DNA of 64,000 bases from a virus, in the IMG/VR virus record IMGVR_UViG_3300025168_009799, positions 1-64,000 of that record; one strand, written 5' to 3'. This document shows, piece after piece, positions 41,292 through 64,000 of this stretch. The position numbers and the translations under genes are program-made. Position 1 is the first letter of the stretch. Each line of letters begins with the position of its first letter. A model generated the notes under the pieces. That model had not been told where the DNA came from. It did not search any database and saw only the letters and a program-made list of their open reading frames with translations.

Positions 41292-42161
41292 ATGGCAATA
41301 TATAAACACGTATCAAGTAAAACAATAATAAGAAAAATCTTTAGAGATTTAAATGTATCTGGTGATAATTGGATAGAGGATTCTATTGAATGGATGGGAG
41401 AAGCTTTAGAACATATTGGAGCTAGTCCTCAGTTATGTCAGAAAGGTACTACAATATCTATAGCAGATTATACTGGAGCATTGCCATCTGACTTATACTA
41501 TATAAACCAAGTGGCTGTAAATAATACTGTAGGGTCTGCTACGAAGTCTGAACTAACAGATGTATTAGCTAAGATTAAAGTTATAGAAAATAAACTATCG
41601 GCAGATCCTAATCAAAATTTTTCTACAGATTTAAGAAAATTAAATGAAAGAATGTTAGTACTGCAAAATATTTATCTAACTGGCAGTCAAGGAAGTTTAG
41701 TACCTATGGCTTATTCAACAGATACATTTCCTACAGCATTACATTGTGACGATTGTGTAAATGAAAAAGCTATAAGTGATGATACATATTTTATTAACTC
41801 TGGGCATATAAAAACGTCTTTTGAAAAAGGAACAGTTTGTTTAAGTTATACAGCTTTTCCAATAGATGATGATTGCTATCCTATGGTTCCAGATGACATT
41901 AGTTTTAAAGAAGCTTTATTTTGGTATATAGTTAAAAAATTAGTATTGAGAGGTACGAGACTACCAACCCAATTAGGGTATGAAATGGCAGAAGGGCAGT
42001 GGAAGTATTACTGTTCTCAAGCAAGGAATGCAGCTAACTATCCAGATATAGATAGAATGGAATCATTTATGAATCAATGGGTTAGATTAATCCCAGAAAT
42101 TAGTCGTGCAGATAATGGATTTAAACATTTAAATGTACGAGAAAGTTTAGATAGAAGCTAA
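41292..42161 (+). CDS. Tail tubular / ring protein
   Basis: IEWMGEALEHIG, IKTSFEKGTVCLSY.AFPIDDD.YPMVPDD, W.YY..QA. Confidence 0.8.
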   Translation: MAIYKHVSSKTIIRKIFRDLNVSGDNWIEDSIEWMGEALEHIGASPQLCQKGTTISIADYTGALPSDLYYINQVAVNNTVGSATKSELTDVLAKIKVIENKLSADPNQNFSTDLRKLNERMLVLQNIYLTGSQGSLVPMAYSTDTFPTALHCDDCVNEKAISDDTYFINSGHIKTSFEKGTVCLSYTAFPIDDDCYPMVPDDISFKEALFWYIVKKLVLRGTRLPTQLGYEMAEGQWKYYCSQARNAANYPDIDRMESFMNQWVRLIPEISRADNGFKHLNVRESLDRS

Positions 42162-47524: not shown

Positions 47525-47525
47525 T

Positions 47526-48902: not shown

Positions 48903-48903
48903 T

Positions 48904-51528
48904 ATGAATACTAAAGCATTACTAAAAATACTAGAGAAAAGACTTAAAGAGAAAGAAGTTACTAAACTTCCTGGAGGAGAAATGAAAACGATTCCTGGTT
49001 CAGACGCTGTAGAGTTTAAAGGACAATCACATGAGCAGGGGGGTATTAAATTAGACAAACTTACTGAAGTAGAAGGAGGAGAAACTATGGATAAAGTAGT
49101 TTTAAAAGATGGTGTTCCTAATGACTATTTCTTTTCAAAACATTTAAAACATAACGGTAAGAGCTTTGCTCAATTACATAAAGAGATTTTAAAGTTTGGA
49201 GGTGCAAAATCACAGCAAAAGATTCAAAATTTAGCTAGGCTTCAAGAGCAGAGAGCGGGCCGAGATGTGAATATAGTTTTAGGTGATAAAGTTATGTATG
49301 GTAATGATGCAGGAAAGTATATGAGTAATTATGTAGCACGAAAAGGAGGAGTAAGAAAATACCATATGGGAGGTAAAAAAGAACATGGGGTGAATACACC
49401 TATGCCTCTACTTCAACACACGCATACAAGTTATAATAAGAATCAGACAGACACAGAATGGGAAGAAGGGTCATCTCTTTATAATGGAGAATCAGCAACA
49501 GAATCTATTATTCTTTCTAGACCGGTATCTATAGATGATTTACAAAAGTTTTCAGAGGCAGAACTAAATGAATTTATAGAAAAGGAAGGTAAGTGGGTTC
49601 CAAAAAGATTTGAAGCAAAGTACCCAGAACTTACTCAAAAAATATTAGACGGAAAAAGAAAAGCTCGACAGGATGCAATAGACTATAATTTTAATCAGGA
49701 TATGCAAAGAACTCAAGCAATGAGTGTAGCGCAAACAGATAATACTACAGTGGTTAATAATCAACTTTATCCGGATGGTCAGGGTGGTTATACTAGCATG
49801 AATGACGACTATGAGGAGCCGTCTTATAATCATATAGAAATTCCTCATCAAAATGTAGATCTAGATTACAATCCACTGCAAAATGCTACTCTTGTACTAA
49901 AGAATGCTCAAATTAGAAATAATAATATTAATAATAAGAATAATACTACAAAAAAGAAAAATTCTGGAAGTGGAAGTGGGAGCGGAAGTGGAAGTGGAAG
50001 TGGAAGTAATAATAACTCTACTAAGAAACAGGATTATAAATATACAGGATTTGAGAATAGAGCTGATGGTAATAGATTTAGAAACTGGTTAAATTTAAAT
50101 TATCCAGAATTTGCTTCAGAAATTGATTTAGATAAAAAAGGAAGTCATACTAATAAGTATATTAAAAAGGGTTTAGAAAAATATGGAGATGAGTATACTG
50201 CATATTTATCTAACGAAGATAATTATGGAGGAGATACTTTTGATGTAGATGAAAATAGAGACGGAGATGATCTTAAGGTTAATCAGTTTGGATATACTCA
50301 AGACGAGTGGTATAACTTACCTATGGCAGAAAAAAATGCATACTTCGCTGGAATAGATAATGAAAGGGTTGCAGAAGATGAAAACTATATAGAAGATGCT
50401 AATAAAGCTTACCACTTAGATAAGTTTGATCAACAATCTAATTTATCTAATGATTGGGTAGACGTTGTAATGAAAGACGGTAGAAAAGTTAGAGTCCCTC
50501 GAGATAAGAAAGATGCTTATGTAGGTAATGATAATTATGATGAGGCTGCTTCACATTGGACTGATAACTTATCACAAAGAGAATCGGTCACTGGATTAGG
50601 TGAAGGGAGTTACACAGATGACGAAGGAAACTTGTGGGAGAAAGACAAAGCAGGTAGATGGAGAGTGAAGTATTCAAAACCAGGTACTGAGTTTGGAGAC
50701 GATGAAAAAGTTTTAGATGATGACTGGACAACACTGGAAGCTAGAAATTATCCAGGAGAAATGAATTTAACTCCTATGGGAGATCAAACTGATGGTACAA
50801 ATGATAAAAAGGGTAAAAATAGTATGTGGCAAAAAACTAAAAACTTTGTTGGTAATACAGATATAAAAGGTTTATTAGTTGATTTAGCACAATTCTTACC
50901 AGTACATATGGCAATGAAAGATAAGCCAGGGCATATGAAACAATATGCTCCAATGCCTGAAGTAAGACTAAATAGAGTTAAATTTAATGAAGCTAGATCT
51001 AAGAACTCTGCAGATTTTAATGCATTAAATTTAGGTATAGATAATGCAGGACATGATCCTAGTTCTTTTGCTAAAAAGATGGCCTTATATGGTAAATCAC
51101 AACAAGCTGATTTAGCTATTGATGGGACAGAAGCTAGAGAGAATGCAAAAATAGACGCAGCTGAAGCAGGAACAAACGTCGGTATTAGATCAGAAAATCT
51201 TAAAAATAGATTATATGTAGACGAGTTTAACTTGGCTTCTGACTCTGCTACATTTGATAGAAAGTTAAATGCTATGAGCTCAGCAGTTCAGAATTTAGGA
51301 TTGCTAAGAGAAAGAGCGTTACAATATAAAGGACAAAAATTAATGGCGGATGCTGTTGGTAGAGACGGTATTAATACAAGACAAAACTTACGTGGAGACA
51401 TGTTAACTAAATATTCACATAGAACTATTAATGGTATGAAATTCTCTGAGATGAATGACGCTGATCAAAGTTCTTTTATTGCTAATGTAACTAACAATAA
51501 TCTGAATGTAATGGATTTGTTCGATTGA
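48904..51528 (+). CDS. Cargo protein with HExGG/EVEGGE module and possible peptidoglycan-binding-like segment
   Basis: 874 aa, no Cys; GQSHEQGGI...EVEGGET; (SG)n linker; GNRFRNWLNLNYP...LDKKG. Confidence 0.7.
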   Translation: MNTKALLKILEKRLKEKEVTKLPGGEMKTIPGSDAVEFKGQSHEQGGIKLDKLTEVEGGETMDKVVLKDGVPNDYFFSKHLKHNGKSFAQLHKEILKFGGAKSQQKIQNLARLQEQRAGRDVNIVLGDKVMYGNDAGKYMSNYVARKGGVRKYHMGGKKEHGVNTPMPLLQHTHTSYNKNQTDTEWEEGSSLYNGESATESIILSRPVSIDDLQKFSEAELNEFIEKEGKWVPKRFEAKYPELTQKILDGKRKARQDAIDYNFNQDMQRTQAMSVAQTDNTTVVNNQLYPDGQGGYTSMNDDYEEPSYNHIEIPHQNVDLDYNPLQNATLVLKNAQIRNNNINNKNNTTKKKNSGSGSGSGSGSGSGSNNNSTKKQDYKYTGFENRADGNRFRNWLNLNYPEFASEIDLDKKGSHTNKYIKKGLEKYGDEYTAYLSNEDNYGGDTFDVDENRDGDDLKVNQFGYTQDEWYNLPMAEKNAYFAGIDNERVAEDENYIEDANKAYHLDKFDQQSNLSNDWVDVVMKDGRKVRVPRDKKDAYVGNDNYDEAASHWTDNLSQRESVTGLGEGSYTDDEGNLWEKDKAGRWRVKYSKPGTEFGDDEKVLDDDWTTLEARNYPGEMNLTPMGDQTDGTNDKKGKNSMWQKTKNFVGNTDIKGLLVDLAQFLPVHMAMKDKPGHMKQYAPMPEVRLNRVKFNEARSKNSADFNALNLGIDNAGHDPSSFAKKMALYGKSQQADLAIDGTEARENAKIDAAEAGTNVGIRSENLKNRLYVDEFNLASDSATFDRKLNAMSSAVQNLGLLRERALQYKGQKLMADAVGRDGINTRQNLRGDMLTKYSHRTINGMKFSEMNDADQSSFIANVTNNNLNVMDLFD
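49963..50007 (+). repeat. GGAAGT hexamer run encoding an (SG)n linker
   Basis: tctggaagtggaagtgggagcggaagtggaagtggaagtggaagt. Confidence 0.9.
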
Positions 51529-51542
51529 TAAAATAATTAAAT

Positions 51543-54125
51543 ATGGCAACTAAATATAGTAAAATAGGTATAGTAAAACCTTATGTTCCTCGATTTGTAG
51601 ATGACGGGTCTGTAAAGATAAACACGTTATTATCAGAAAGATATGACAATGCAATTGCAAATGAAAGTCTTTTAGAAGACGCTTATAATCAAATGCAAGT
51701 GGCAGACTTTGAGGGCGATCAAGAACTAGCAGGAGAACTAAGAACTAGAGTAGATAAAGAATTAAATTCATATAAAAGCCGAGGTGATTATGAAAATTTA
51801 GGTAGAGCAGTAAACAGGTCTGTTCAAAATTTTAAAACAGATTATAAACCTTTAATGGATAATTATAGTGCTTGGTCTGGATATAAACAAGAGTTACAAG
51901 GAAGAGAAGATTTAACTCCAGCTCAGAAAAGTAAACGAGTACAAGCTGCTAAAGACGTGTATAGTAAAACTGATGGTTTAAAAAAAGATAAAGACACTGG
52001 TTTATGGGAAGGATTCTTTAGTGGTAGACAATGGGCTAAAGGGTTAGAGCTTACAGAAATGGCTGGTGATATTGCTAAAGATTTAAAAACAGAGTTAGTA
52101 GCTAGCGAAGGTTTTACAGAAGACCCTGCTACAGGCATTCTTATGAAAGTAGGTACTAGTAATGAATACTTAACTCCTCAGATGATTTATGATAGAGCTA
52201 TGATTATGTTATCTGGTAGAGAAGATGTTAAAGCATTCTTACAAGATGAAGCATATATAACTTCTTCAGAATATACTCCAGATATGAAAGATGCTTTTGA
52301 AGGAGAGTCTTTAACAGACTTTAATAGCACAGTAGCACAATTAATGGAGAATGGAACATTTGAAGATCAGACTGAAGCAGAGGCAGCTGTATACGGACAA
52401 TTAGCTTCACAAGGAATGTTAGACACAGCACTAAGAGCTGCAGGTGAGGTATACCAAGTTAAGAAGTTTAAACAAAGTATAGACGCACTTCCAGAATATA
52501 TGCAATATGCTCATAATAGTAAATACGCTCAAAGTAGAAATGTTATCTCAGCTACTACAATATCTCAAGATGAATTTGTAGATTTAGGATTAATACAAGC
52601 TGCTAATAGTGAGTCTATGGATTTAGCGGAGAATACAGGAAATATTTTAAATTTAGCATTAGAGGAGTTTGGAAAAGATACAGGCTTAGATGCAGGTACT
52701 GCTAGATTAGTTTTAGAGAATTATAATCAACTAATGATGAGTAATCCTGAGTATACTACAGCGCCTCCAGAGGAGATAGCTGGAGTTATAGGAGTTACAC
52801 CTCAACAAGTGTATCGTATACAAGAGTATGCTCCAGACATAAATAGATTGATTAATGATCACGCAACGTATCAAAAAAATGCATCTCAAGGTAGTAACTA
52901 TCAAAATGAGTTATTTACTTTAGCTAAAGAGAATGGATTTGATATAGACGGTTACATACAAGAAATGTGGGACAGTACACCATCTACTTGGACATCAAAT
53001 GTGTTTGGAGAATCGAACAGTAGTGGTTTTGATATGCGTAAAGCAGAAGGAGCTGATATAGGGTGGTTAGGTACATCTATGCCTTGGAACTGGGACGAGT
53101 TAGAAAAGATGGAGTATGAAGATTTTAGAGAAATAGTTCTAACTGGAAAGTTACAAGATGGTCATGATTTAGGAGATGGAGGGTGGAATGAAGGAGACTT
53201 AGGTATGCTTAATCAGAAACTAACTACAGGTGAGGGAGTTGCTAGAGATATTAGATATAGATTAATGAATAAAGTTAATGAGATAGTACAAGCTAATCCA
53301 GACGCTTTATCAGGATCTGTGATTACTAATGCAGATAAGAAATCTCCTCTTAATAAACTTAATGTAGATATAACTACAGCTTTTAATGCTAATAAAAATG
53401 GATATACAGTTAAAGATATATACGGTAAAGATATTACTTTTGCAGATCACTTAGTAGAGAATGGAGTATTAAACGATTATGGAGATATTAATAAGTGGGA
53501 TATGGAAGAAGCATGGCCTGCTACTGGAGGATTTGTAAGTGATAATCCTTTAATGATGGTAAAGCTGAAAAATAATGAGAATGGAGAAACCATGACTACT
53601 ACTATGCCTATGCAGCAATTACAAACTGAAACTTATAAAAGTGCAATGATTACAGCATTAGATCATGAGAGTAATCCTGTAAGCAGACAACGTATGTTAC
53701 AATCTTATGGACATAACATGGTTAATGTAGGAGGACAAAATGATTTTAATAATAGTAATAAATTAAATATTAGTACTTTCTTTAATAGCGCTTTTCAACC
53801 AGATGTAGGAATTCAAAATGAAGTGGGCGTAACTTCTGAGCGAGCTTTAAAAATTGATTTACCTATATTTAATGGTGGAGCAAGTTTAAGAGTAGGTAAA
53901 AGGAAAATGCAATCAGGTCAGATGTATTATGATATTAAGGTAGCAGATCATAATACGGGAGAGTTTTATGATCTAGGAGATCAAAGTGCTTTAGGCCCGG
54001 AAATAGTACAGTCATTACAGATGTTAGATAATAGACTATTAAGTAAGTCGTATAACAATGAAGCAATGTTATATGAGTTAGTTGGAGCATTAAATTATAT
54101 TTCTGATAAAGGAATAATTAGATAA
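51543..54125 (+). CDS. Cargo / ejection protein
   Basis: 860 aa, no Cys; N-terminal PYVPRFV then a helical region; precedes the giant cargo genes. Confidence 0.7.
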   Translation: MATKYSKIGIVKPYVPRFVDDGSVKINTLLSERYDNAIANESLLEDAYNQMQVADFEGDQELAGELRTRVDKELNSYKSRGDYENLGRAVNRSVQNFKTDYKPLMDNYSAWSGYKQELQGREDLTPAQKSKRVQAAKDVYSKTDGLKKDKDTGLWEGFFSGRQWAKGLELTEMAGDIAKDLKTELVASEGFTEDPATGILMKVGTSNEYLTPQMIYDRAMIMLSGREDVKAFLQDEAYITSSEYTPDMKDAFEGESLTDFNSTVAQLMENGTFEDQTEAEAAVYGQLASQGMLDTALRAAGEVYQVKKFKQSIDALPEYMQYAHNSKYAQSRNVISATTISQDEFVDLGLIQAANSESMDLAENTGNILNLALEEFGKDTGLDAGTARLVLENYNQLMMSNPEYTTAPPEEIAGVIGVTPQQVYRIQEYAPDINRLINDHATYQKNASQGSNYQNELFTLAKENGFDIDGYIQEMWDSTPSTWTSNVFGESNSSGFDMRKAEGADIGWLGTSMPWNWDELEKMEYEDFREIVLTGKLQDGHDLGDGGWNEGDLGMLNQKLTTGEGVARDIRYRLMNKVNEIVQANPDALSGSVITNADKKSPLNKLNVDITTAFNANKNGYTVKDIYGKDITFADHLVENGVLNDYGDINKWDMEEAWPATGGFVSDNPLMMVKLKNNENGETMTTTMPMQQLQTETYKSAMITALDHESNPVSRQRMLQSYGHNMVNVGGQNDFNNSNKLNISTFFNSAFQPDVGIQNEVGVTSERALKIDLPIFNGGASLRVGKRKMQSGQMYYDIKVADHNTGEFYDLGDQSALGPEIVQSLQMLDNRLLSKSYNNEAMLYELVGALNYISDKGIIR

Positions 54126-54130
54126 TAGAT

Positions 54131-57100
54131 ATGAGTAAAATAGATTTACTAGGAAATGTAGATAATACTGCTGAGTTAGTATCATCTGCTACTAAGAATA
54201 ATTCAACAACCCCTAAAGGACCTAAGATGGACTTATTTGGGGGCGTTAAATCTGCATCTAAAGCAGCTGAGTTAGGAGAGCTTCCTACTTGGGATGCTTC
54301 TGGAGATTTATTTAAACGATATAATAATTTAGATTTAGATAATTACAAAAAATATTTTACAGTTGATGGGCAAGTAGAAATTCCTGCAGTTAATTTAGAC
54401 GCTTTAAATGAAGGACGAGCTCGACATCAAAGTACGTTGGCTCAAATTGGTAATGGTCTAGGTAAAGCAGGGGTTACTTTTGTATCTGCTGTAGGAGAAA
54501 ATACAGTAGGATTAGTTAATGGTACTTTATCAGCTCTGTATAACTGGGATATAAGTAAACTTTATGATAATAATGTAAGTAATGTATTTCAGGGTATGCA
54601 AGACTGGGCTCAAGAATCAATGCCTAATTATAATACTCGAGAAATGGAACATGCTAATTTCTTTGAGCAGATGTATAATCCAGGTAAAGGAGTTGCTAAC
54701 TTTTGGGCAGATAAGTTTGCTAATGGATTTGCCTATACATTAGCTTCTGTAGCTACTATTATAGCTACTGGAGGATATGGGTCTATAGGAGTTGCAGGAA
54801 GTTTAGGTAGAATGGGATTACAAGCAGCAGCTCAAGGAGGTAAAAAATTATTATTTCAAGCCGCTAAAGATGCTACTAAGAAGACTGTTAAAAAAGGTAT
54901 AAGAACTATGTTTAAAGAAGGTATGAAACGTAGTGGATCTAGTATTAATAGTGTTAGGCAGGGAGTACAAAATATAGCTAAAGGTAATGTAAATGCACAA
55001 GCTTTAAAAACTTTAGACGCTGGAATGTCAATGGCTTGGGCAGAATCTTCGATTGAGGCTAGAGATACTTATGACACAGCTTACGGTTCATTAGTTCAGC
55101 AGTATATGGATGAGAATGGATTTGTTGATGAAAGGCAAGTACCAGAACAAATTAAAGAAAAACTTAGCGGAGAAGCTCAGGCAGCTTCGAATGTAAATTT
55201 TGCTGCGAATTTAGCTATTGTAGGTACTACTGATGTTTTAATGTTTGGTAGAATGATTAATGGTTATAAACCTAAAATTAAATTCAATCCTCTTTCTGGG
55301 ACAGGTAAAGCTGCTGTAGATGCTACTCTAATAGAAGGTAGTAAATTATCTAAAATGAGAAGGATATGGAGAAATACTAAAGCTTATTCAGCAGCTGCGG
55401 GTACTGAAATGACCCAAGAGGGTCTGCAATATGTATCTAATAACTTTGTAACAGATTATTATTTAGATAAGAATTCTGATTCTGGACAAGCTGATATGGT
55501 AAATTCATTAGGAAATGCTTTCACTGATTTATTTGGCACTAAAGAGGGTAAGGAATCTATGTTACTTGGATTTTTAACAGGAGGAGTATCTACTATTAAA
55601 GGTACGAGTAAAGCATTGGCAGAGCAAGATGCTAATACTGAAAGTTTAATAAACAGAGTTCATACAGGATTTTTAAGTGAAACAAGAGCAAAATTGGAGA
55701 AGAAAGAAGCTAGTGGTAGATATACATATTTAATGCAGCAAGCAGAACAAGAAGGAGATTTAGAAGCTTTTGAAGAAGCTCATCAGGCTTTAATACAAAA
55801 TGAAGTAATGGCTTCAATTCAAGAAGGTACTCTAGAGGAGTTTAAAGAAAGAGTCGCAGACGCAGCAGAAATGTCAGATGAAGAATTTTCTGAAACGTTT
55901 GGAATTGATTTAGATGCTGTAAAAATAGATAAATCTAGCTATATAACTAAGCTTCTTAAAAAGGCTGAAAGAATAGAAGCTGTATATCAAGAAGCTTCCC
56001 AAGCATTTCAAGTTCAAGAACGTAAAGGTTTATATAGATGGGCAACTGAGAAAATGGCACCTGAAGAGTTAAAGACGATGGAGGTAAGAAATGAGAATAT
56101 GAATATTTTCAGATCTCAGTATTTTAACTCTGTTATGCAAATGGATAATCTTGATGCTAAAGAAAAAGAGAATGCAGATTTATTGTCAGACTTAACTAAT
56201 GGAGAAGTTAACTATACAGGTATGAGAGACCTTATAGAAACTACTGAACAAGAAGAAGCACTTGATGATCGTCAAATGGACCTTAAGAGACGTATAAACG
56301 AAAATTTAGATGATACTGGACAACCTAAAGATCCAGCATTACATGGACAGCTTGTAATGGAATCAGAGCAGTTAAACATACAACGTGCAAACTTACTAGA
56401 TAAATTGTCTGAGCAGCATGAAAAAACATTAAAAGGAGAATTTGATAAACAATTCTCAGCGTGGTCAACTAAAGTTCAAAAACAAAAAGGTAGAGTAGAT
56501 CTTATCGACAAAGCTTCTAAAGCTAAGATAGAACTTGATTATGCTAGGGGCCTTAGAAACCAAGCTGTTCAAGCATTTAATGCGTTAAAAACAGAAGATG
56601 GAAGAACGGCACTACTTGAAGATATAGGTAGAATAGAAAAGCTTAGAAGAAACGATAGGCATAGTGGTGTTCTTATGAGAGAGGCACAAGAGATGGGTAT
56701 GTCAGAATATACTTATGCAAAGCTTTATGCAATGTCTCAAATGCCAGGGTTAAACGACAAAGCACGTAAAGCTATACGTAAGAAACAAGCTGATTTAATG
56801 AAGATGGAAAAGAGATATAGAACTATGTTCCGTAATATGTCTGATGAACAATTAGCAGAAGCATTAATAAAATATAATAATAATTTTATTGTAGGGCTTG
56901 TAGGGGAGGAGCTTCTGACCAGATCTGAACAAAAAAGAGTGGATCTAGATGAGGAACGTCAACGTATAGAAGAAGAGCAAGAGAAACAAAAAGAACAGGA
57001 TGAGAAAGTTAAAAGGGACGAAGAGGAAAGGCAAAATGATATATTAGATAAAGAGAAACAGTTAAGGGATAAGCCTGAAACTGAAGAGAATATAGATGAT

Positions 57101-59533
57101 ATACAAGTTATAAACCACACTGACTCTAAGTTAATAAAGATTGACCAGAAGATAGCAGAATTAGAAAGGGAAATTGCAGCTCAAAAACTAATTGTAACTC
57201 CTGAAGTTGATAGAATAACAGCTTTAGATAAAACTCTAGATGAGTCAGGTAGGGCTTTTGTAGATCTCATGAGAGAGAAAGGCAAGGATCAGGGTATGAT
57301 TGACGCTAAGATAAAAACTGAAGCTAGAAAAACTGCAGCAGGGAATCAATTACTAACAAAATATAAAGCTGAAGATACATTACAAAATCCAGAAGGAAAG
57401 AAATTAGCTAAACTAGTTGCTGCATATAGTTTATTATACACAGATAGATATATACCAGAAACTACAGTTAATAATACTTTATATTCATCTCCTGATTTAA
57501 GAACTCAAAATTTAGGCAATACTGCTTCAAATTACGGAGTTCAACAAGCTCTCCTTGGTTATGAGGCGTGGGCGGAAAGAGGTGAGACTCTCTCTAATCT
57601 TAAAGGGCAAAGAATAGGAATCATAGCTCAAAACAAAAGTAAGACAGAGGCTGTACCTAAGAATCCTAGTAATGAAACAGGTAGGAAACAAGGACAAGTT
57701 ATTAGTAGAAATGGACAATATATAAACGAAGATCCTCAAGATAGGTCTCCAAAGTTTGATGAAAATTTTAATCCAACTAACCATAGATCTAGTGTTACTG
57801 TTAACGGGCAAGAGATTAAAATACATAGAGAGCTGTTAACTGATCCTGATCTAGCTTCAATGGATACAGAGGTTACGTTAAGAGTGTTACCTACAGATGA
57901 GTGGGTTAAATTAGCAGCTGATCCTGGAGCTCCAGAAAAAAAATACCCAGACTATTCAACTATTCCAGTAGGAATATTTTTGGAGATAGAGAATTATGAC
58001 GTTCTTGTAGGAACTTTAGGATATCATCAAGGTAATGCAGAATTTACTGTTGAAAGACAACGTATCTATAATAATTGGAAGAAGGGAAAAGATACTAGAG
58101 CTGTTATTAAAAGATATGAAACTGATAATATAGGAATTGATTCTGCTCCAGGATACAGCAGTAGTAAACTTACTAGTAATGGAGATATTCAAAATTATAG
58201 AGATAAGGACGGACTAGGAGTACAGAAATCTGTTTCAGAGATTTTTGCGTTATCGGAACAAGGCTATGGGCAGCCCGTTATTGCGGTAGTTGCAGGTAGT
58301 CAATTTTCTCCGGAAGGTCTTAATATTACTCTTGGATTAAATGCTCCTGAATTAGACTTAGATAATATACCTGTTCCAAAGTCTCAGATAGCAGGGTCAG
58401 TAGGTATGATTGTTCAGGACCCAAATGGTTATGATTTGTTCATACCTTTACAAACTAGATTCTTAGGAGAGAACGCTATTAATACAATAATAACGAATGC
58501 TGTAGCTAATAACGTAAAAGATATTGAACAGACTACTTATGCTGATTATTCGTTACAGGATTTAGAAGATTGGGGATATAGAGGAAGTAGTGTACCTGTA
58601 GATTCTAGCTCAGGGTTAGCAAATAATTTTTATAAAATTTTAGCTAAAAAAGATTCAGAGGATAACTTCTTAGACAGTACACATCTTTTTTACACTCCTT
58701 ATAAAGATAGTATGGTTCTAGTAGGAGCATCTAACAAGGCTCTTAAAAATCAAGGACCAGTTAAAATGTATGAAATAACTGAACAGGGTCTGAAAGTTGT
58801 ACCGCAAGATAAACAACCGTCTGGATTACCAGATGCTGAGACAGCGATGAGAGACATGCTATCTAGAAAAAGATATCAAGTAGATGCTAGTAAATTTAAT
58901 AATACTAATCTTCAATATAAAAGTCCTGTAACTGGTATAACGCACCGTAATTACCAAGAATATTTGATGTCTGAGCAAGAGGCTAAGACTGAAGGAGGGG
59001 AGGTTCAAGAAAGACGTAATGGTGCTCCAGGAAGTAGCTCTGCTATTATCGCTTCAGATGTATATGTAAGAAGAATGGAGAGACCTCTCGCGGGCCCTCA
59101 TCGTAGTATACATGCGAATGTAAATATTGCTATGAGAATTCCTGAGTTAGATAATTTTAAAGGTCAGGAGTCTAACACAGATTTAGCTGATCCTATTACT
59201 CATAGCGAGGTAATTATAGAGCAACAAGAAAAATTATTAGAACAACAGGTTGCAGATATGTTAAATATTCCTAACTTTGACCCCTCTCAAATAGACTTCA
59301 CTGGCGGAGTGATCCCAGGTGCTAGTGATTTAAATAAAATTGAGGAAGATATAGTTAATAAAGAGGCTAAAAGATTTAAGAATGAACAAGAAAATAAGGA
59401 GGTAGATCCTATAAAAACTAATGAAACAAAGTCTGAAACTTCCACAGAGGAATTATTAGATAATAGTGACGAGGATATTCCTGATACAGATGCAGAAGAT
59501 GATGGTATTGTTGGTAACGAAAAAGAATGTTAA
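54131..59533 (+). CDS. Large cargo protein (membrane-channel-like N-terminus, coiled coils)
   Basis: 1800 aa; Gly/Ala-rich hydrophobic helices, AESSIEA, TEMTQEGLQ; the only Cys is the last residue. Confidence 0.75.
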   Translation: MSKIDLLGNVDNTAELVSSATKNNSTTPKGPKMDLFGGVKSASKAAELGELPTWDASGDLFKRYNNLDLDNYKKYFTVDGQVEIPAVNLDALNEGRARHQSTLAQIGNGLGKAGVTFVSAVGENTVGLVNGTLSALYNWDISKLYDNNVSNVFQGMQDWAQESMPNYNTREMEHANFFEQMYNPGKGVANFWADKFANGFAYTLASVATIIATGGYGSIGVAGSLGRMGLQAAAQGGKKLLFQAAKDATKKTVKKGIRTMFKEGMKRSGSSINSVRQGVQNIAKGNVNAQALKTLDAGMSMAWAESSIEARDTYDTAYGSLVQQYMDENGFVDERQVPEQIKEKLSGEAQAASNVNFAANLAIVGTTDVLMFGRMINGYKPKIKFNPLSGTGKAAVDATLIEGSKLSKMRRIWRNTKAYSAAAGTEMTQEGLQYVSNNFVTDYYLDKNSDSGQADMVNSLGNAFTDLFGTKEGKESMLLGFLTGGVSTIKGTSKALAEQDANTESLINRVHTGFLSETRAKLEKKEASGRYTYLMQQAEQEGDLEAFEEAHQALIQNEVMASIQEGTLEEFKERVADAAEMSDEEFSETFGIDLDAVKIDKSSYITKLLKKAERIEAVYQEASQAFQVQERKGLYRWATEKMAPEELKTMEVRNENMNIFRSQYFNSVMQMDNLDAKEKENADLLSDLTNGEVNYTGMRDLIETTEQEEALDDRQMDLKRRINENLDDTGQPKDPALHGQLVMESEQLNIQRANLLDKLSEQHEKTLKGEFDKQFSAWSTKVQKQKGRVDLIDKASKAKIELDYARGLRNQAVQAFNALKTEDGRTALLEDIGRIEKLRRNDRHSGVLMREAQEMGMSEYTYAKLYAMSQMPGLNDKARKAIRKKQADLMKMEKRYRTMFRNMSDEQLAEALIKYNNNFIVGLVGEELLTRSEQKRVDLDEERQRIEEEQEKQKEQDEKVKRDEEERQNDILDKEKQLRDKPETEENIDDIQVINHTDSKLIKIDQKIAELEREIAAQKLIVTPEVDRITALDKTLDESGRAFVDLMREKGKDQGMIDAKIKTEARKTAAGNQLLTKYKAEDTLQNPEGKKLAKLVAAYSLLYTDRYIPETTVNNTLYSSPDLRTQNLGNTASNYGVQQALLGYEAWAERGETLSNLKGQRIGIIAQNKSKTEAVPKNPSNETGRKQGQVISRNGQYINEDPQDRSPKFDENFNPTNHRSSVTVNGQEIKIHRELLTDPDLASMDTEVTLRVLPTDEWVKLAADPGAPEKKYPDYSTIPVGIFLEIENYDVLVGTLGYHQGNAEFTVERQRIYNNWKKGKDTRAVIKRYETDNIGIDSAPGYSSSKLTSNGDIQNYRDKDGLGVQKSVSEIFALSEQGYGQPVIAVVAGSQFSPEGLNITLGLNAPELDLDNIPVPKSQIAGSVGMIVQDPNGYDLFIPLQTRFLGENAINTIITNAVANNVKDIEQTTYADYSLQDLEDWGYRGSSVPVDSSSGLANNFYKILAKKDSEDNFLDSTHLFYTPYKDSMVLVGASNKALKNQGPVKMYEITEQGLKVVPQDKQPSGLPDAETAMRDMLSRKRYQVDASKFNNTNLQYKSPVTGITHRNYQEYLMSEQEAKTEGGEVQERRNGAPGSSSAIIASDVYVRRMERPLAGPHRSIHANVNIAMRIPELDNFKGQESNTDLADPITHSEVIIEQQEKLLEQQVADMLNIPNFDPSQIDFTGGVIPGASDLNKIEEDIVNKEAKRFKNEQENKEVDPIKTNETKSETSTEELLDNSDEDIPDTDAEDDGIVGNEKEC

Positions 59534-62500
59534 ATGGCGAATTGTATAAATAGTATAGATAGTTTAGTTGAAAGAAGGGTACAAATGTTATCCTATATTC
59601 AAAACAGATTTGGTAAAGATGTTTCTGTTACTATCAATAATTATGTTAAAAGGGTGGGTAATGAGAATGTACATGGTATGTTTAAAAACATGGCATTTAC
59701 TTTATCTACTTTAGGTGAACCAGGTGTAGAGTATCATGAAGCTTTTCATGGATTCTTTACTATGTATTTAACAGATGGACAGCGCGCGTCTTTATTAAAA
59801 CAGGCAGCACAAAGATATGGAGAGCCTAGCCAAGTAGAGCTAGACGCTGTAAATGGAGTAAGAGAATTAGCTCTAGAAGAAAAAATGTCAAATGCATTTC
59901 AAGAGTATTCATTAACTGAAGACCCTAAAGGTATACCTGCTAAGATAGCTAAGTTTTTTAAAGACTTATGGAATTTAATTAAGAGTATGATTTCTGATTC
60001 TATAGGAATTAATCAAGCATTTTCTATATTAGAATCAAATAATATTCCTATGAAGTTCAAACGGAATATGCACATGTTTAGAGGAGGGAAGCCTGCTATG
60101 TACTTAAAGAAACGTGTGGATTATACAACACAAGAAACTAAGGATACAACTTTATTTATTAGATCTAGATTTATGAATTTCTGGAGGTCATACCAACAAC
60201 AGGCTAAGCAGGATCCATTTAAGGTAGCTATTAATAGACAAATGGATAAAGTTAGAACAGCATTTCCTGCTATGACTAGATCAGAATCTTTAGTTAAAGT
60301 TTTAACGTCTCATACTAAGAATACGTTTTTAAGAAACGCTTGGTCATATACTGAGAAAGCTGAAGGAAAAGATGCTGGAACTAAAATTGATTTAAAGCAA
60401 GCAAGAGAATTACACGGACTAAGAAGAGAAGGAAAGACGGATGAGTATATGAATAAACTTTCAGAATATGGAATTCAAGAGCGTGCAGCATTTGGGTGGT
60501 CTCCTAACCCAGGTAATAGAGTTAGAATGGATAAGACTACTACTAATTTTCAACACTTTATTGATATATATGAAAATTGGGGAGATACTATTCAGACCGC
60601 TGAAATTACAGATGATAACGGAAAGAAGAAAGAAGTTAAGATTAATACTATAGACCAAGGATGGTGGACTGGGGTAGAAGAACTCTTACCAGATGTAGGA
60701 TTAAAGATTAGACATAGAGAAGTAACTGAGGGATTAGAAGAACTACCATTGGACCCAACTGAGACAGACTCTCCTAGTCCTGAAGGAGGAGAAAGGATTT
60801 ATGAATTAAGCCATTATGAACAAGATAGTTGGAAAGGTATGTCAAAAGAGTTACGTATGTACTTTGAAGATATATTAGATTACTCATCAGAGATTCCAAA
60901 CCATTTACAAGTACATAGACCTCATGGAGGTAAACATGTATATGAAGTATTAAAATTAGCTTTATCAAATACTACAAGTTTTACACAAATGAAAGACGTG
61001 CTAAAAGAGAAAGCTACATTACATGGTCCTAATAGTATTTATGGTATAATGTTTTCTCGTGTTACTGGCATAGGATTAGAAGGACGAGTAGAGAATATTA
61101 CTATGCAGCTTCCTGCTACATTAGTATCAGATTTTCATGGATTATTTAGAAATACTACTAAAGAATTTAAATCGGTAAAGGTAAATAGAAGTAAGCGTAA
61201 AGACGCGCAAGGCATGTTGCCTGCACCTGAAGTAGTAGTTTATAACCCAGATCAGAATTCAATTATTAATAATTTAGTTAATAATCAATATAGAAAAAAT
61301 ATTATTGATGTAACTGGAGTTAAAACTGAAAGAGCTTTATACAATAAGGCTGTTACTGTAGAGCCTGGAACCAAAGATCAGAGTATAGAATATATACCTA
61401 TTAGAGAGAATCTACAAGACTTTCAAGCCCACGTTAAAGATTTAAATTCTTTAACTTCAATGCGAGGAGAGCTTAATGAGTCCGAGCTGGTTGAGGCTAC
61501 AAGAGCCTTTAGAAAAATAGTAACTTATTTAGGAGTTGATTTACCAGGTATATCTCCACAAGACCAAGATACTGTTCTTTACGATATAGTAAATCAAGGG
61601 GTATCTATACCAAATAGATTTGGTAAGTATACTACATATCAAGGCAAAAACTTTTTTAGATATTTTTTAAAAGGAAGCAAGACAAAATCAAAATCTAATT
61701 TATTAACTGTAAGTGCGCAGATTATAGATCAAAAAGGCGAACCTAAGAAGCCTACGTTTGAGCCATTTTCTAAAGGAGCCTCAAGAGGACTCTTAATGAA
61801 TTTAGCAGCTTTTCAAAAAGCTTTAGGTATAAATGGAGAACCTAATTATGTTAATGAGTTTGGTAAATCTATTTATAAAATTAACATGCCTACTGCTTTT
61901 GATAATACTGTGAATAGAATTAAGAGTGGTAAAATATTTGATGCAGACCCTAACAATATAGAATATGGTAATTTAGACAAAGATCCTTTGTTCGTACCAG
62001 TGCAAAAACCGGTTGACGGTACAAGCTCTTGGGCTAATTATGTAAGCCCTTTATATATGTCTATGATTAATAACACTGACGGTTTAAGAGAGAAGTTAAG
62101 TCTAGAAAATATTAGTGCTTTTACTTTAGATTCAAATAGAGGATATAGTGATTTTGGCCAGATGAGTGAGAGCGATGAATATTTATTACGTTTATTTCTA
62201 TTTCAAAAAGGTACTCATTCGGATAACTTAACTAATATGATGATCGATACTCAAGGGGATAGAGGAGTATCTAGTACTATGGGATTACCTAGAGTAATAT
62301 TAGAAGGGGAAGGGACTAGAAGCCTTGATAATTCTATGTACGGCTCTAATGGATTTAAAACTCTAACAGATTTTAGTAATGCTTATATTATTCAGGATAT
62401 CGTTAAGATGCAACAAGCTGACTCGCATGTAGAACTTGCGGAAGATGGCGAATCTTTATTTGATACTTATCATTATACTAACCCTAGTGATAAAAAAGCT

Positions 62501-64000
62501 AAAGATGGTAAAGCATTTAAATTTACGCAATTGCCTTTTGCACAAGACATGCTAGAGCGTGGGGACTTAGACTTATCTCCAGGTATAAACTTAACACAAA
62601 TTAATGTAGAAGATTTTGTTAACGGTGAACAGAGTATTAGAACTAATAACTATATAGAAACTGAACAAGAAACTGTTAGCAGAGATAAAGTTATAGCATT
62701 GCTAGATAAAATATCAATGGAGTTTGGAAAAAACATAGATAGGTATACAGATCAATGGGTGTCTGATATGAAAAAGATGAAAGTCTGGGATAATAATATA
62801 TGGGTAGATACTGATTTTCTAAAAAAGATACACGGAGGAAATGCAGCGATCAATGACATAACAAAGAAATATCTAATTAAAAATTATATCGTTAATGATG
62901 TAATTAATAGATTAGAAATGAAAAAGATATTACGTATTACAGATGATTTCACAAACAATACGGAGATAGCAGCTAAGAGATTTGGACTTGGATCTACTCC
63001 AGGACTACAATTATTAATGAAAGGTCAAAATTTAGCGGACCCTTCTTGGGGAATGACTCCTACATTTAGTGAATTAATAATTGAAGATTTATATAATATA
63101 CAAGCAGATAGTGGAAGACATGAAAGGTTTGCAGAATCTCTTAATACGTTAGGGGTACCTTTAAAGTTAATTAATCAATTTGCTTCTCAATATAGACCAG
63201 GACAATCTAATAAGACAGACGCTTCTGGATGGATGTCAGTACATGCTTGGCGTAACAGATTACAAGGCCAACCTAATGGATGGACTAATGCACATGAGAA
63301 AGCATATAACAATTATAAGCAGTCTGGCGTATGGGGATTTTATAAAAATATTTATAATTTTAAAGAAGGTAAAACAGAACAAATTCTAGTACGTCCTCCT
63401 GTATTACCTATTAAAGAGTATTATGAATCACATGAATTGTATCAAGGTAATACTTTAGCAGTTAATAATACTAAGAACTCTTATTTACCTTTATTAAAAG
63501 AGACAACAGACATAGCTGGTCAAGGCCTAGAGCTTATTAGATTAAGATTAGAAGGGAAGGAATTAAACGCTGCGGATAAAGCGGCAGGGAAAACTCAATT
63601 TGCTACACATACTCCTATAGATGTAGCTAATACAGTAAGCGCTAAAAAACTTGCTAGACTTAACGTTATAAAATTTCAAAATAATGATGGTACTTTTAAT
63701 ATATCAGGATTAGTTACTGCTAAACCTGTTGTTTTAAATTCTAATGGAATAAAGATTCCACAAATTAAACCTTCTACAGCAACTAAGAAATTTACTATTT
63801 GGGGCACACAAGTGAAGAGAAATGCAATTGCTAATGTACAAGATGATACTCAATATACTCTTCCTCAAGGTAATAAATTATCTGGAAGTATGGTAAAATC
63901 TTTATATCATAAAGCTGCTCAAGCGAATATGGATACTAGTATTGAGAAGTTAGAGAAAGCTTTTGGATTTTCAAGATTGAAAGGTTTAAAACTTGGAGAC
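59534..64000 (+). CDS. Virion RNA polymerase polyprotein with N-terminal zincin domain (partial, at least 1489 aa; not in ORF track)
   Basis: Manual translation is open from ATG 59534 to the window end; HEAFH (59735-59749) plus LEEKMSNAF; crAss RNAP-like motifs KRFGLGSTPG (~62975), NKTDASGW (~63210), LPIKEYY, KNSYLPL, SAKK, GTQVKR. The catalytic DxDxD motif is not visible and is presumably beyond the window. Confidence 0.85.
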   Translation, partial: MANCINSIDSLVERRVQMLSYIQNRFGKDVSVTINNYVKRVGNENVHGMFKNMAFTLSTLGEPGVEYHEAFHGFFTMYLTDGQRASLLKQAAQRYGEPSQVELDAVNGVRELALEEKMSNAFQEYSLTEDPKGIPAKIAKFFKDLWNLIKSMISDSIGINQAFSILESNNIPMKFKRNMHMFRGGKPAMYLKKRVDYTTQETKDTTLFIRSRFMNFWRSYQQQAKQDPFKVAINRQMDKVRTAFPAMTRSESLVKVLTSHTKNTFLRNAWSYTEKAEGKDAGTKIDLKQARELHGLRREGKTDEYMNKLSEYGIQERAAFGWSPNPGNRVRMDKTTTNFQHFIDIYENWGDTIQTAEITDDNGKKKEVKINTIDQGWWTGVEELLPDVGLKIRHREVTEGLEELPLDPTETDSPSPEGGERIYELSHYEQDSWKGMSKELRMYFEDILDYSSEIPNHLQVHRPHGGKHVYEVLKLALSNTTSFTQMKDVLKEKATLHGPNSIYGIMFSRVTGIGLEGRVENITMQLPATLVSDFHGLFRNTTKEFKSVKVNRSKRKDAQGMLPAPEVVVYNPDQNSIINNLVNNQYRKNIIDVTGVKTERALYNKAVTVEPGTKDQSIEYIPIRENLQDFQAHVKDLNSLTSMRGELNESELVEATRAFRKIVTYLGVDLPGISPQDQDTVLYDIVNQGVSIPNRFGKYTTYQGKNFFRYFLKGSKTKSKSNLLTVSAQIIDQKGEPKKPTFEPFSKGASRGLLMNLAAFQKALGINGEPNYVNEFGKSIYKINMPTAFDNTVNRIKSGKIFDADPNNIEYGNLDKDPLFVPVQKPVDGTSSWANYVSPLYMSMINNTDGLREKLSLENISAFTLDSNRGYSDFGQMSESDEYLLRLFLFQKGTHSDNLTNMMIDTQGDRGVSSTMGLPRVILEGEGTRSLDNSMYGSNGFKTLTDFSNAYIIQDIVKMQQADSHVELAEDGESLFDTYHYTNPSDKKAKDGKAFKFTQLPFAQDMLERGDLDLSPGINLTQINVEDFVNGEQSIRTNNYIETEQETVSRDKVIALLDKISMEFGKNIDRYTDQWVSDMKKMKVWDNNIWVDTDFLKKIHGGNAAINDITKKYLIKNYIVNDVINRLEMKKILRITDDFTNNTEIAAKRFGLGSTPGLQLLMKGQNLADPSWGMTPTFSELIIEDLYNIQADSGRHERFAESLNTLGVPLKLINQFASQYRPGQSNKTDASGWMSVHAWRNRLQGQPNGWTNAHEKAYNNYKQSGVWGFYKNIYNFKEGKTEQILVRPPVLPIKEYYESHELYQGNTLAVNNTKNSYLPLLKETTDIAGQGLELIRLRLEGKELNAADKAAGKTQFATHTPIDVANTVSAKKLARLNVIKFQNNDGTFNISGLVTAKPVVLNSNGIKIPQIKPSTATKKFTIWGTQVKRNAIANVQDDTQYTLPQGNKLSGSMVKSLYHKAAQANMDTSIEKLEKAFGFSRLKGLKLGD

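What the first reader, a model, noticed from the sequence alone, without database searches (positions are those of the whole stretch)
59500..59560. The only two cysteines in about 5,500 aa of cargo proteins face each other across an in-frame TAA-ATG junction
Seen: the five consecutive ORFs from 47526 to 64000 (458, 874, 860, 1800 and at least 1489 aa) contain, by my reading, just two Cys. One is the very last residue of the 1800-aa protein (...NEKEC*) and the other is residue 4 of the RNAP polyprotein (MANC...). The genes abut in the same frame (GAA TGT TAA ATG GCG AAT TGT). External virion proteins of this phage are very Cys-rich by contrast. Established: crAss-like cargo proteins, including the RNAP, are packaged in the head and ejected into the host. 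Inference: Cys is purged to allow unfolded passage through the oxidising periplasm, and the retained pair forms a head-to-tail disulfide tether. This would thread the proteins out in order and release the RNAP in the reducing cytoplasm. Stop-codon readthrough into a single polyprotein is an alternative.
Basis: partly seen in the sequence, partly recalled or inferred. Interest (0 to 1): 0.8.

Follow-up and report, generated by a model that had tools for sequence, protein, structure and literature searches.

The report
Terminal cysteines chain crAss cargo proteins
Three giant proteins of this marine crAss-like phage, with its particle-borne RNA polymerase in the middle, have no cysteine except one at each end that faces the next protein; relatives keep this rule wherever the genes are split and lack it where they are fused, which points to untested end-to-end disulfide links.

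Summary
In the window, 5,491 aa of five consecutive ORFs hold two Cys: the last residue of the 1800-aa protein (A) and residue 4 of the next (B). The whole record (89,749 bp) shows that B (2796 aa, DFDID RNA-polymerase motif) has one more Cys, five residues from its end, and that the next protein C (1458 aa, HEFGH) has one Cys, residue 3.

Relatives follow the same rule.
- 62 of 64 gene junctions in 45 IMG/VR loci have a Cys on both facing ends, and both misses look like gene-call or insertion artefacts.
- 98 of 100 full-length stand-alone C-type representatives start with a Cys in residues 2-7.
- None of 14 fused A+B+C proteins has a terminal Cys.
- phi14:2 and crAss001 obey the rule, even though the crAss001 A-type gene lies on the other strand.

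Cryo-EM of the unrelated cyanophage A4 shows such a bond, gp27 Cys1715 to gp26 Cys5.

The best reading is head-to-tail disulfides that re-join a split polyprotein. The bond and its role in ejection are untested in crassviruses, and I found no paper describing the rule. This scan noted the same pattern before in at least 15 other genomes.

The parts
54131..59533 (+). Protein A, 1800 aa, gp47/g067-like virion protein. Its only Cys is the last residue.
   Evidence: blastp to crAss001 gp47 gives E 8e-17 and to phi14:2 g067 gives E 7e-4. PHROG 32390, function unknown. All 4 cluster representatives of 66-100% identity, one being the phage's own protein, end in their only Cys.
59528..59530 (+). TGT codon of Cys1800 of A, the proposed donor of the A-B disulfide
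59531..59536 (+). TAA stop of A directly followed, in frame, by the ATG of B
59543..59545 (+). TGT codon of Cys4 of B, the proposed partner of A Cys1800
59534..64000 (+). Protein B, virion RNA polymerase-like. The window cuts it; in the whole record it runs to 67924 (2796 aa). Cys occur only at 4 and 2792. HEAFH lies at residue 76 and DFDID at 1683. Protein C follows at 67941-72317 in the record (1458 aa, outside the window), with Cys only at residue 3 and HEFGH at 180.
   Evidence: blastp to phi14:2 g066 'catalytic RNA polymerase subunit' gives E 5e-26 and to crAss001 gp50 gives E 3e-25. C matches g065 at E 2e-29 and gp49 at E 1e-32.
47496..54125 (+). Three Cys-free ORFs upstream (468/458, 874 and 860 aa). 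They are presumed cargo proteins and are not part of the Cys-linked chain.
   Evidence: No PHROG hit. No blastp hit at E<=1e-3 to crAss001 gp45 or gp46 or to phi14:2 g068-g070. 'Cargo' is inferred from their position between the muzzle-like gene and A.
42161..47524 (+). Muzzle-like virion structural protein (1787 aa, 16 Cys). It marks the start of the cargo block.
   Evidence: PHROG 15100 'virion structural protein', E 1e-39. Weak blastp to crAss001 gp44, E 1.6e-6. Cys count.

Best explanation
A (1800 aa), B (2796 aa, the virion RNA polymerase) and C (1458 aa, with a zincin-like motif) are the pieces of what other crassviruses encode as one polyprotein of 4,500-6,000 aa. Once the finished virion is outside the reducing cytoplasm, the single Cys near the C-terminus of each upstream piece bonds by a disulfide to the single Cys at residues 2-7 of the next piece. 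A Cys1800 pairs with B Cys4, and B Cys2792 pairs with C Cys3. The three proteins thereby become one nearly linear covalent chain.

Every other Cys has been purged, so no wrong cross-link, loop or branch can form in proteins that must partly unfold to pass the tail channel. The stubs beyond each bond are at most about 8 residues, so the chain has the topology of a single polypeptide.

The likely uses are 1:1:1 delivery of the three proteins as one translocation substrate and separation by reduction in the host cytoplasm.

Shown here: the Cys pattern, its statistics, and its co-variation with gene splits and fusions.

From the literature: homologues are virion proteins, and a bond of this geometry exists in phage A4.

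Inferred: the bond in crassviruses, when it forms, and its role in ejection.
For: 1. Own genome: 4 Cys in 8,256 aa, each within 5 residues of an end, forming two facing pairs at two consecutive junctions. Positional chance is about 1e-11.

2. IMG/VR loci: 45 loci were fetched with a profile of 7 C-type proteins.
- Both facing ends carry a Cys within 8 residues at 62 of 64 junctions, which lie in 39 loci.
- The two misses: L047, where the second Met gives M-V-C; and L043, where a 253-aa ORF is inserted between B (ends ..ECN) and C (starts MAIHC).
- Of 138 Cys in 168,807 residues, 129 are terminal.

3. Architecture tracks Cys.
- Fused A+B+C: 0 of 14 have a terminal Cys, and 12 of 14 have no Cys at all.
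- Full-length fused A+B: 6 of 6 have only a C-terminal Cys.
- B alone: P0007, P0009, P0011, P0013 and P0020 have Cys at residue 3 or 4 and at 1-4 residues from the end.
- B+C fusions: 11 have an N-terminal Cys; 0 of 26 have a C-terminal Cys.

4. Exhaustive HMMER search with C gave 841 hits, of which the top 150 were examined.
- 98 of 100 stand-alone C-type proteins (M start, at least 1000 aa) have a Cys in the first 8 residues, and in 80 of them it is the only Cys.
- 0 of 117 C-type proteins have a C-terminal Cys.

5. Tree of 135 C domains: at least 10 changes between split and fused. In 10 independent pairs the Cys state changes the same way in 7.3 on average and the opposite way in 0.4 (median sign-test p 0.016).

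6. New pairs appear at new split points.
- L026 has an extra 585-aa piece with Cys at residue 3 and at 2 residues from its end.
- The crAss001 gp47 C-terminal region (2100-2206) aligns with own B 13-128, so its A|B split lies elsewhere yet still has a pair.
- Mapping onto the fused protein P0060 suggests at least 3 A|B split positions.

7. Cultured phages.
- phi14:2: g067 has its only Cys at 1797 of 1797; g066 has Cys 3 and 2179 of 2180; g065 has Cys 3.
- crAss001: gp47 has its only Cys at 2339 of 2341; gp50 has Cys 5, 1334 and 2404 of 2412; gp49 has Cys 5.
- These proteins are virion components by mass spectrometry (record notes; Bayfield 2023 passages).

8. Selection acts on the protein. Both TGT and TGC occur (101 and 11) and the positions vary.

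9. Precedent: the A4 cryo-EM disulfide gp27 Cys1715 to gp26 Cys5 lies inside the capsid. In the A-4L record, gp27 (1717 aa) and gp26 (1114 aa) each have exactly that one Cys.

10. crAss001 virions carry other disulfides in the tail and at the portal vertex.
Against: No experiment shows the bond in any crassvirus.
- In the passages I searched, Bayfield 2023 and the Drobysheva 2020 preprint do not mention these Cys.

Exceptions to the rule:
- P0078 and P0085 are stand-alone C-type proteins of about 1,500 aa with no Cys.
- P0156 is a 2,146-aa protein holding the C domain and the end of B, scored as split in the tree, with no Cys.
- Some members have internal Cys: crAss001 gp50 Cys1334; P0013; P0030; L042; P0094 with 5.

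Other weaknesses:
- The cytoplasm where virions assemble is reducing, and gut crassviruses live without oxygen. The bond would therefore have to form late or during handling.
- With four Cys, the pairing A-B and B-C is inferred from the two-piece systems and cannot be read from the sequence.
- The tree is a FastTree tree, and 29 of 135 rows were left out of the trait count as truncated or short at the N-terminus.
Confidence: 0.75

Rival explanations
1. The same facing Cys pair joins the pieces, but not by a disulfide. It could be a shared metal ion (a zinc-hook-like bridge) or another thiol chemistry.
For: The comparative data show pairing but not chemistry. B and C each carry an HExxH motif, so metal could be nearby.
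Against: Each end offers one Cys, and I saw no conserved second ligand (His or Cys) in the variable terminal sequences. The one solved analogue, A4, shows a disulfide.
Confidence: 0.07
2. The terminal Cys do not bond to each other. Each bonds to something else: the same Cys of a second copy (homodimers), or a capsid, portal or tail protein that anchors the cargo.
For: Several copies of each protein were estimated per crAss001 virion (for example six of each; Bayfield 2023), so homotypic contacts are possible. crAss001 has many structural disulfides.
Against: This does not explain three observations. The Cys appear strictly in facing pairs at each split. The outer ends almost never carry one: 0 of 117 C-type proteins have a C-terminal Cys, and the N-terminus of A-type and fused proteins is Cys-free. 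Fusion removes both at once. In A4 the bond is heterotypic, upstream C-terminus to downstream N-terminus.
Confidence: 0.08
3. Readthrough of the in-frame TAA, or another recoding event, makes a real A-B polyprotein, and the Cys are incidental.
For: In this phage and in L007, L028 and L032 the A|B junction is in frame.
Against: L007 has two in-frame stops. 49 of 64 junctions in relatives are out of frame and 21 overlap. The own B|C junction is out of frame. crAss001 gp47 lies on the opposite strand. Readthrough would not explain why the Cys are conserved.
Confidence: 0.02
4. Chance or composition: low Cys content in an AT-rich phage, with the terminal positions a coincidence.
For: The genome has 33% G+C, and Cys is rare in many phage structural proteins.
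Against: Other ORFs of the genome have 1.47% Cys, and the probabilities are about 6e-47 for the depletion and about 1e-11 for the positions. The rule recurs in hundreds of representatives that share less than 50% identity.
Confidence: 0.01

Closest known systems
Cyanopodophage A4 (Anabaena phage A-4L) pre-ejectosome proteins gp27 and gp26 (PNAS 2025, PMC12002296; passages read)
   Same: The upstream ejection protein has its only Cys 2 residues from the C-terminus (1715 of 1717). The downstream protein has its only Cys at residue 5. Cryo-EM shows these two joined by a disulfide inside the capsid. The gene order and the direction (upstream C-terminus to downstream N-terminus) match.
   Different: There is no detectable sequence similarity to A, B or C (best blastp E 0.1 or worse). 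A4 belongs to a different family (Saffermanviridae), has two proteins rather than three or four, and has no RNA polymerase. In the passages I read, the paper treats the bond as a local stabiliser. It does not mention Cys depletion, a rule across relatives, or gene splits.
Crassvirales RNAP-associated cargo block: phi14:2 gp67-gp66-gp65 and crAss001 gp47-gp50-gp49
   Same: Homologous proteins with the same order A-B-C, the same DFDxD and HExxH motifs, and the same terminal-Cys pattern. They are virion proteins by MS. The gp66 preprint says the three are fused into one polyprotein in some phages.
   Different: Neither paper mentions the cysteines. The Drobysheva preprint has 0 occurrences of cysteine or disulfide, and Bayfield 2023 has disulfides only in the tail and at the portal vertex. 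The preprint assumes that fused forms are cleaved. The Cys rule suggests the opposite logic: split forms are re-joined.
Ejected internal proteins of N4 (vRNAP gp50, gp51, gp52) and T7 (gp14, gp15, gp16)
   Same: Large proteins stored in the head and ejected through a short tail, and almost Cys-free. N4 gp50 (3500 aa), gp51 and gp52 have 0 Cys. T7 gp15 and gp16 have 0 Cys, and gp14 has one Cys at residue 2.
   Different: I saw no facing terminal pairs. The N4 2026 paper has 0 occurrences of cysteine or disulfide.
Split inteins (protein trans-splicing)
   Same: Products of a split gene are covalently re-joined, and Cys at the junction is the reactive residue.
   Different: The Cys here lie at most 8 residues from the ends, so there is no room for intein halves. 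The result would be a reversible disulfide, not a peptide bond. This comparison rests on my general knowledge of inteins; no intein search was run.

Membership tests
Crassvirales virion RNAP / cargo block (A = gp47/g067-like, B = gp50/g066 RNAP, C = gp49/g065) | Sequence homology of the three proteins to the characterised members | tested here: met
   blastp: B to g066 E 5e-26 and to gp50 E 3e-25; C to g065 E 2e-29 and to gp49 E 1e-32; A to gp47 E 8e-17 and to g067 E 7e-4.
Crassvirales virion RNAP / cargo block (A = gp47/g067-like, B = gp50/g066 RNAP, C = gp49/g065) | DFDxD catalytic motif in the RNAP and a zincin-like HExxH in the C-type protein, as named in the gp66 preprint | tested here: met
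   DFDID at B 1683 and HEFGH at C 180. H180, E181, F182 and H184 are invariant in A2.
Crassvirales virion RNAP / cargo block (A = gp47/g067-like, B = gp50/g066 RNAP, C = gp49/g065) | The proteins are packaged in the virion and ejected | not testable with these tools
   Known by MS only for the phi14:2 and crAss001 homologues. Inferred here by homology and by the gene's place after terminase, portal, major capsid and muzzle-like genes.
Head-to-tail disulfide-linked ejection proteins (type case: phage A4 gp27-gp26) | A single Cys within a few residues of the C-terminus of the upstream protein and of the N-terminus of the downstream protein, in otherwise Cys-free proteins | tested here: met
   for this phage; for A4.
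Head-to-tail disulfide-linked ejection proteins (type case: phage A4 gp27-gp26) | The disulfide is physically observed in the virion | not testable with these tools
   Seen for A4 only. No structure or non-reducing MS result for the crassvirus proteins was found.
Head-to-tail disulfide-linked ejection proteins (type case: phage A4 gp27-gp26) | Common descent with A4 gp27 and gp26 | tested here: not met
   blastp of A4 gp24-gp35 against A, B, C and the three upstream ORFs gave nothing better than E 0.1. The likeness is one of mechanism; the proteins do not form one protein family.
Split intein | Intein N- and C-halves flanking the split | tested here: not met
   The Cys lie 0-8 residues from the ends, which leaves no room for intein halves. 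No intein profile search was run.

The most novel reading that the evidence does not exclude
Podophage ejected proteins follow a general 'cysteine grammar'. They are purged of Cys so that the only disulfides able to form in the extracellular virion are programmed head-to-tail links. These links turn separately encoded giant proteins into one thread. In crassviruses that thread is A-RNAP-C, which would be pulled through the tail and envelope as a single substrate and released and activated by reduction in the cytoplasm: a redox-gated delivery switch for the first transcription of the infection. Because a Cys pair can replace a peptide bond, these giant genes can split and fuse freely. That would explain at least 10 split/fusion changes at one junction and several different split sites.
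Probability: 0.35. Interest if true: 0.85.

Novelty: new variant of a known kind. Interest (0 to 1): 0.75.

Why it matters
Crassvirales include the most abundant viruses of the human gut. [quoted passage not shown]

A covalent, reversible end-to-end tether would have several consequences.
- It would give a concrete mechanism for stoichiometric, ordered delivery.
- It would explain why these genes can be split, fused or moved to the other strand without loss of function.
- It would contradict the assumption that fused polyproteins must be cleaved.
- It would turn a single structural remark on cyanophage A4 into a rule that recurs in an unrelated phage order.

The idea can be tested at once with cultured phages (phi14:2, crAss001). 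It may also be testable by re-searching existing reduced and non-reduced virion MS data.

Tried and rejected
- Single-protein scan of viral contigs with the first 600 aa of B: no locus.
- A homologue search wasted on a 655-aa piece of B, which restricted candidate lengths. It gave one 377-aa hit, P0005, with no Cys.
- PHROGs on the cargo ORFs and on the Cys-free and Cys-rich ORFs. Only terminase, portal, major head protein, a 'virion structural protein' and one family of unknown function were named.
- Sequence searches of the PDB with A, with B and with the C profile: 0 matches each. For B this is odd, because the phi14:2 gp66 structure is published and blastp of B against g066 gives E 5e-26. 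I cannot say whether the entry is missing or the match was filtered out.
- Complex prediction on A 1600-1800 with B 1-350, using shallow alignments of 8 and 5 rows: no verdict (score 0.14, mark 0.32). This counts neither for nor against binding.
- Exception P0021 (B-type, no N-terminal Cys). Its 91%-identical relative in L054 starts 40 residues earlier with MRYC and has the full A/B/C pattern, so the exception is most likely a start-codon call.
- Exceptions P0078, P0085 and P0156 could not be resolved.
- Readthrough, chance, homodimer or anchor Cys, a metal bridge and split inteins were considered. See the rival explanations and the membership test.
- Literature searches for prior description:
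  - crAss + disulfide + RNA polymerase + virion: 23 papers; only Bayfield 2023 was relevant.
  - Crassvirales + cysteine + cargo proteins: 0 papers.
  - Crassvirales + disulfide: 4 papers, none on cargo.
  - ejection proteins + intermolecular disulfide + phage + capsid: 0 papers.
  - crAss + cysteine-free: 48 papers; the 10 listed were all unrelated 'crass*' words.
- What I saw of each paper:
  - Bayfield 2023: found passages and the MS methods section.
  - Drobysheva 2020 preprint: found passages only, and not the published 2021 version.
  - A4 PNAS 2025: found passages.
  - N4 2026: term counts only.
  - Supplementary files were not opened. Extended Data tables of Bayfield 2023 (peptide coverage, disulfide list) could bear on the claim.


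Full report
**What is in the sequence**

At 59516-59551 the + strand reads GAA TGT TAA ATG GCG AAT TGT. An 1800-aa ORF (54131-59533, here called A) therefore ends in Cys, and the next ORF (from 59534, here B) starts M-A-N-C in the same frame.

The five consecutive ORFs from 47496 to the window's end hold 5,491 aa and two Cys, A-1800 and B-4.

The window is bases 1-64000 of an 89,749-bp IMG/VR virus record that CheckV rates as complete.
- B is 2796 aa, and its only other Cys is residue 2792, five from the end (..EDDCNSPL).
- The next gene (67941-72317, here C, 1458 aa) has a single Cys at residue 3 (MACRIN..).
- The six proteins thus hold 4 Cys in 8,256 aa, arranged as two facing pairs at two consecutive junctions.
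- The second junction has a 16-nt spacer and a different frame.

The remaining 54 ORFs of the genome have 1.47% Cys, so about 122 Cys would be expected (P about 6e-47). If four Cys were placed at random, the chance of one in each of the four 5-residue facing ends is about 1e-11.

**What the proteins are**

- B matches phi14:2 g066, annotated 'catalytic RNA polymerase subunit' (E 5e-26), and crAss001 gp50 (E 3e-25). It carries DFDID at residue 1683.
- C matches g065 and gp49 (E 2e-29 and 1e-32) and carries HEFGH at residue 180.
- A matches gp47 (E 8e-17) and, weakly, g067.
- Upstream lie terminase, portal, major head protein and a muzzle-like protein.

The phage is therefore a crAss-like phage. 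One close homologue comes from a Tara source, which suggests a marine origin. The homologues of A, B and C are virion proteins by mass spectrometry in phi14:2 (record notes) and in crAss001, where they are called RNA-polymerase-associated cargo proteins.

**Conservation in close relatives**

The four cluster representatives of A at 66-100% identity, one of them the phage's own protein, each have one Cys, and it is the last residue.

**Conservation in distant relatives, and the fusion test**

A word-index search with all of B gave 26 proteins. I mapped them onto A, B and C by blastp and listed their Cys. After adding the hits of the later HMMER search, the classes are as follows.
- Fused A+B+C (4,378-6,012 aa): 0 of 14 have a terminal Cys and 12 of 14 have no Cys at all. 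P0057 has one internal Cys and P0094 has five.
- Full-length fused A+B: 6 of 6 have exactly one Cys, at the last or next-to-last residue.
- B alone (P0007, P0009, P0011, P0013, P0020): Cys at residue 3 or 4 and at 1-4 residues from the end. P0013 has one extra internal Cys.
- B+C fusions: 11 carry a Cys at residues 3-5, and none of the 26 has a C-terminal Cys. The 15 without an N-terminal Cys either have more than 1,300 residues ahead of B (a divergent A region) or look cut at the 5' end.

An exhaustive HMMER search with residues 1-1200 of C found 841 proteins at E<=1e-3 among cluster representatives at 50% identity. The best 150 were listed.
- 117 proteins of my whole set (together) contain only the C domain.
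- 100 of these start with M and are at least 1000 aa long.
- 98 of those 100 have a Cys within the first 8 residues (position 3 in 62 of all N-Cys cases), and in 80 it is the only Cys.
- 0 of the 117 has a C-terminal Cys.
- Over all 174 proteins examined there are 179 Cys in 386,126 residues, and 135 of them are terminal.

**Both sides of the junction**

A profile of seven C-type proteins fetched 45 IMG/VR loci with up to 10 kb on each side.
- In 39 loci at least one junction is visible.
- Of 64 junctions between consecutive ORFs of the block, 62 have a Cys within 8 residues of both facing ends.
- One miss is L047, where the called start overlaps the upstream gene and the second Met gives M-V-C.
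- The other miss is L043, where a 253-aa ORF sits between B (ending ..ECN) and C (starting MAIHC).
- After removing near-duplicate loci, 57 junctions remain. The upstream Cys lies 0-6 residues from the end and the downstream Cys at positions 3-7. Both TGT and TGC are used.
- Of 138 Cys in 168,807 residues of these loci, 129 are terminal.

**Pairs move with the split**

- L026 has a fourth piece of 585 aa, with Cys at residue 3 and at 2 residues from its end.
- In crAss001 the domain that opens our B (residues 13-128, holding an HEAFH motif) lies inside gp47 (2100-2206; E 9e-9). Its A|B split is therefore further downstream, and it still has a pair: gp47 Cys2339 of 2341 and gp50 Cys5.
- Extrapolating termini onto the fused protein P0060 suggests at least three A|B split positions. 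This mapping is rough because the linkers vary in length.
- On a FastTree tree of the last 680 aa of 135 C domains, the split/fused state at the B|C junction changes at least 10 times.
- In 10 independent pairs the Cys state changes the same way in 7.3 on average, the other way in 0.4, and not at all in 2.3 (median sign-test p 0.016).
- 29 of the 135 rows were left out of that count as truncated or shorter at the N-terminus than my cut-off. Many of these do carry the N-terminal Cys.
- The 'unchanged' pairs come largely from three Cys-less rows that my rule scored as split (P0078, P0085, P0156). Whether they are complete proteins I could not check.

**Rivals**

Readthrough of the in-frame TAA is not a general answer.
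- 49 of 64 junctions are out of frame and 21 overlap.
- L007 has two in-frame stops.
- The own B|C junction is out of frame.
- crAss001 gp47 is on the opposite strand from gp50 and gp49.

A constraint at the nucleotide level is unlikely for the same reason, and because the codons and positions vary.

Independent roles for each Cys (homodimers, or anchoring to the shell) do not explain the strict pairing, the Cys-free outer ends, or the joint loss on fusion.

A metal bridge cannot be excluded by sequence, but I saw no conserved second ligand.

**Precedent**

A look-up of this scan's earlier notes showed the same pattern reported on at least 15 other genomes. It also named a paper, which I then checked myself.
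- In the A-4L record, gp27 (1717 aa) has exactly one Cys (1715) and gp26 (1114 aa) exactly one (5).
- gp27 is the upstream gene.
- There is no sequence similarity to A, B or C.

So a bond of the proposed geometry does form inside a capsid. The crassvirus case would be an independent and larger instance, with three or four proteins including the RNA polymerase.

Cys-free ejected proteins seem to be general. N4 vRNAP (3500 aa), gp51 and gp52 have none. T7 gp15 and gp16 have none, and gp14 has one at residue 2.

**Mechanism proposed**

Shown: the pattern and its evolutionary behaviour.

From the literature:
- The proteins are in virions.
- Crassvirus cargo must partly unfold to pass constrictions under 50 A.
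- crAss001 virions contain other disulfides.

Inferred:
- After release from the reducing cytoplasm, the facing Cys oxidise and link A-B-C into one chain whose side stubs are at most about 8 residues.
- The purge of all other Cys prevents loops and branches.
- The chain travels as one substrate and is cut by reduction in the new host.

I put about 0.75 on the covalent head-to-tail link and less on the functional story.

**Novelty**

I found no paper that describes the terminal Cys of crassvirus cargo proteins. Supplements were closed, and only the preprint of the gp66 paper was seen.

Because A4 supplies a solved example of the bond, I class this as a new variant of a known kind. What is new is the rule across an order, its tie to gene fission and fusion, and the inclusion of the virion RNA polymerase.

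Noticed in passing
L043:8880-9638 (IMG/VR locus): A 253-aa ORF sits exactly between B and C. It starts MQLKSGIYKITN..YIGSS, which I recall as GIY-YIG-like; no profile search was run. Its own C-terminus (..IKRIKNCN) resembles the end of B (..QTRIKECN). It may be a homing endonuclease inserted at the junction with a copy of the tail.
   Followed up: no
window 59735-59800 (B residues about 68-88) and L004 crAss001 gp47 residues 2100-2206: B opens with a domain that holds a second HExxH motif (HEAFH at residue 76). In crAss001 the same domain is the C-terminal part of the A-type protein gp47.
   Followed up: partly
window 12561-14198, 14420-15817, 15894-17006, 18581-19390: Four more ORFs (545, 465, 370 and 269 aa), the first three between portal and major head protein and the fourth just after it, have no Cys and no PHROG hit. 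They could be further internal or ejected proteins.
   Followed up: no
window 21326-21880, 21891-28583, 36409-38769: Very Cys-rich ORFs: 15 Cys in 184 aa, 62 in 2230 aa and 43 in 786 aa. None has a PHROG hit.
   Followed up: no
L052 (phage N4) and L053 (phage T7): N4 vRNAP gp50 (3500 aa), gp51 and gp52 have 0 Cys. T7 gp15 and gp16 have 0 Cys, and the single Cys of gp14 is residue 2. Depletion of Cys in ejected proteins looks general among podophages. The N4 2026 paper does not mention cysteine.
   Followed up: partly
window 59531-59536; L007:1204-1212; L028:1111-1116; L032:1117-1119: In this phage and three relatives with a B of about 2,790 aa, the A|B junction is in frame with a spacer of 0-6 nt. 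L007 has two stops (TAA GAA TAA). This fits a fission by a stop codon within a once-continuous frame.
   Followed up: partly
L010:8907-9538 and L033:9392-9856: Unusually long gaps (629 and 462 nt) lie between the upstream protein and C. In L010, B is also about 240 aa shorter than in its near relatives. These may be a frameshift, an insertion or an assembly fault.
   Followed up: no
own B (L002:1-8388): phmmer of B against all PDB chain sequences found nothing, although a crystal structure of the homologous phi14:2 gp66 is published (preprint) and blastp of B against g066 gives E 5e-26.
   Followed up: no
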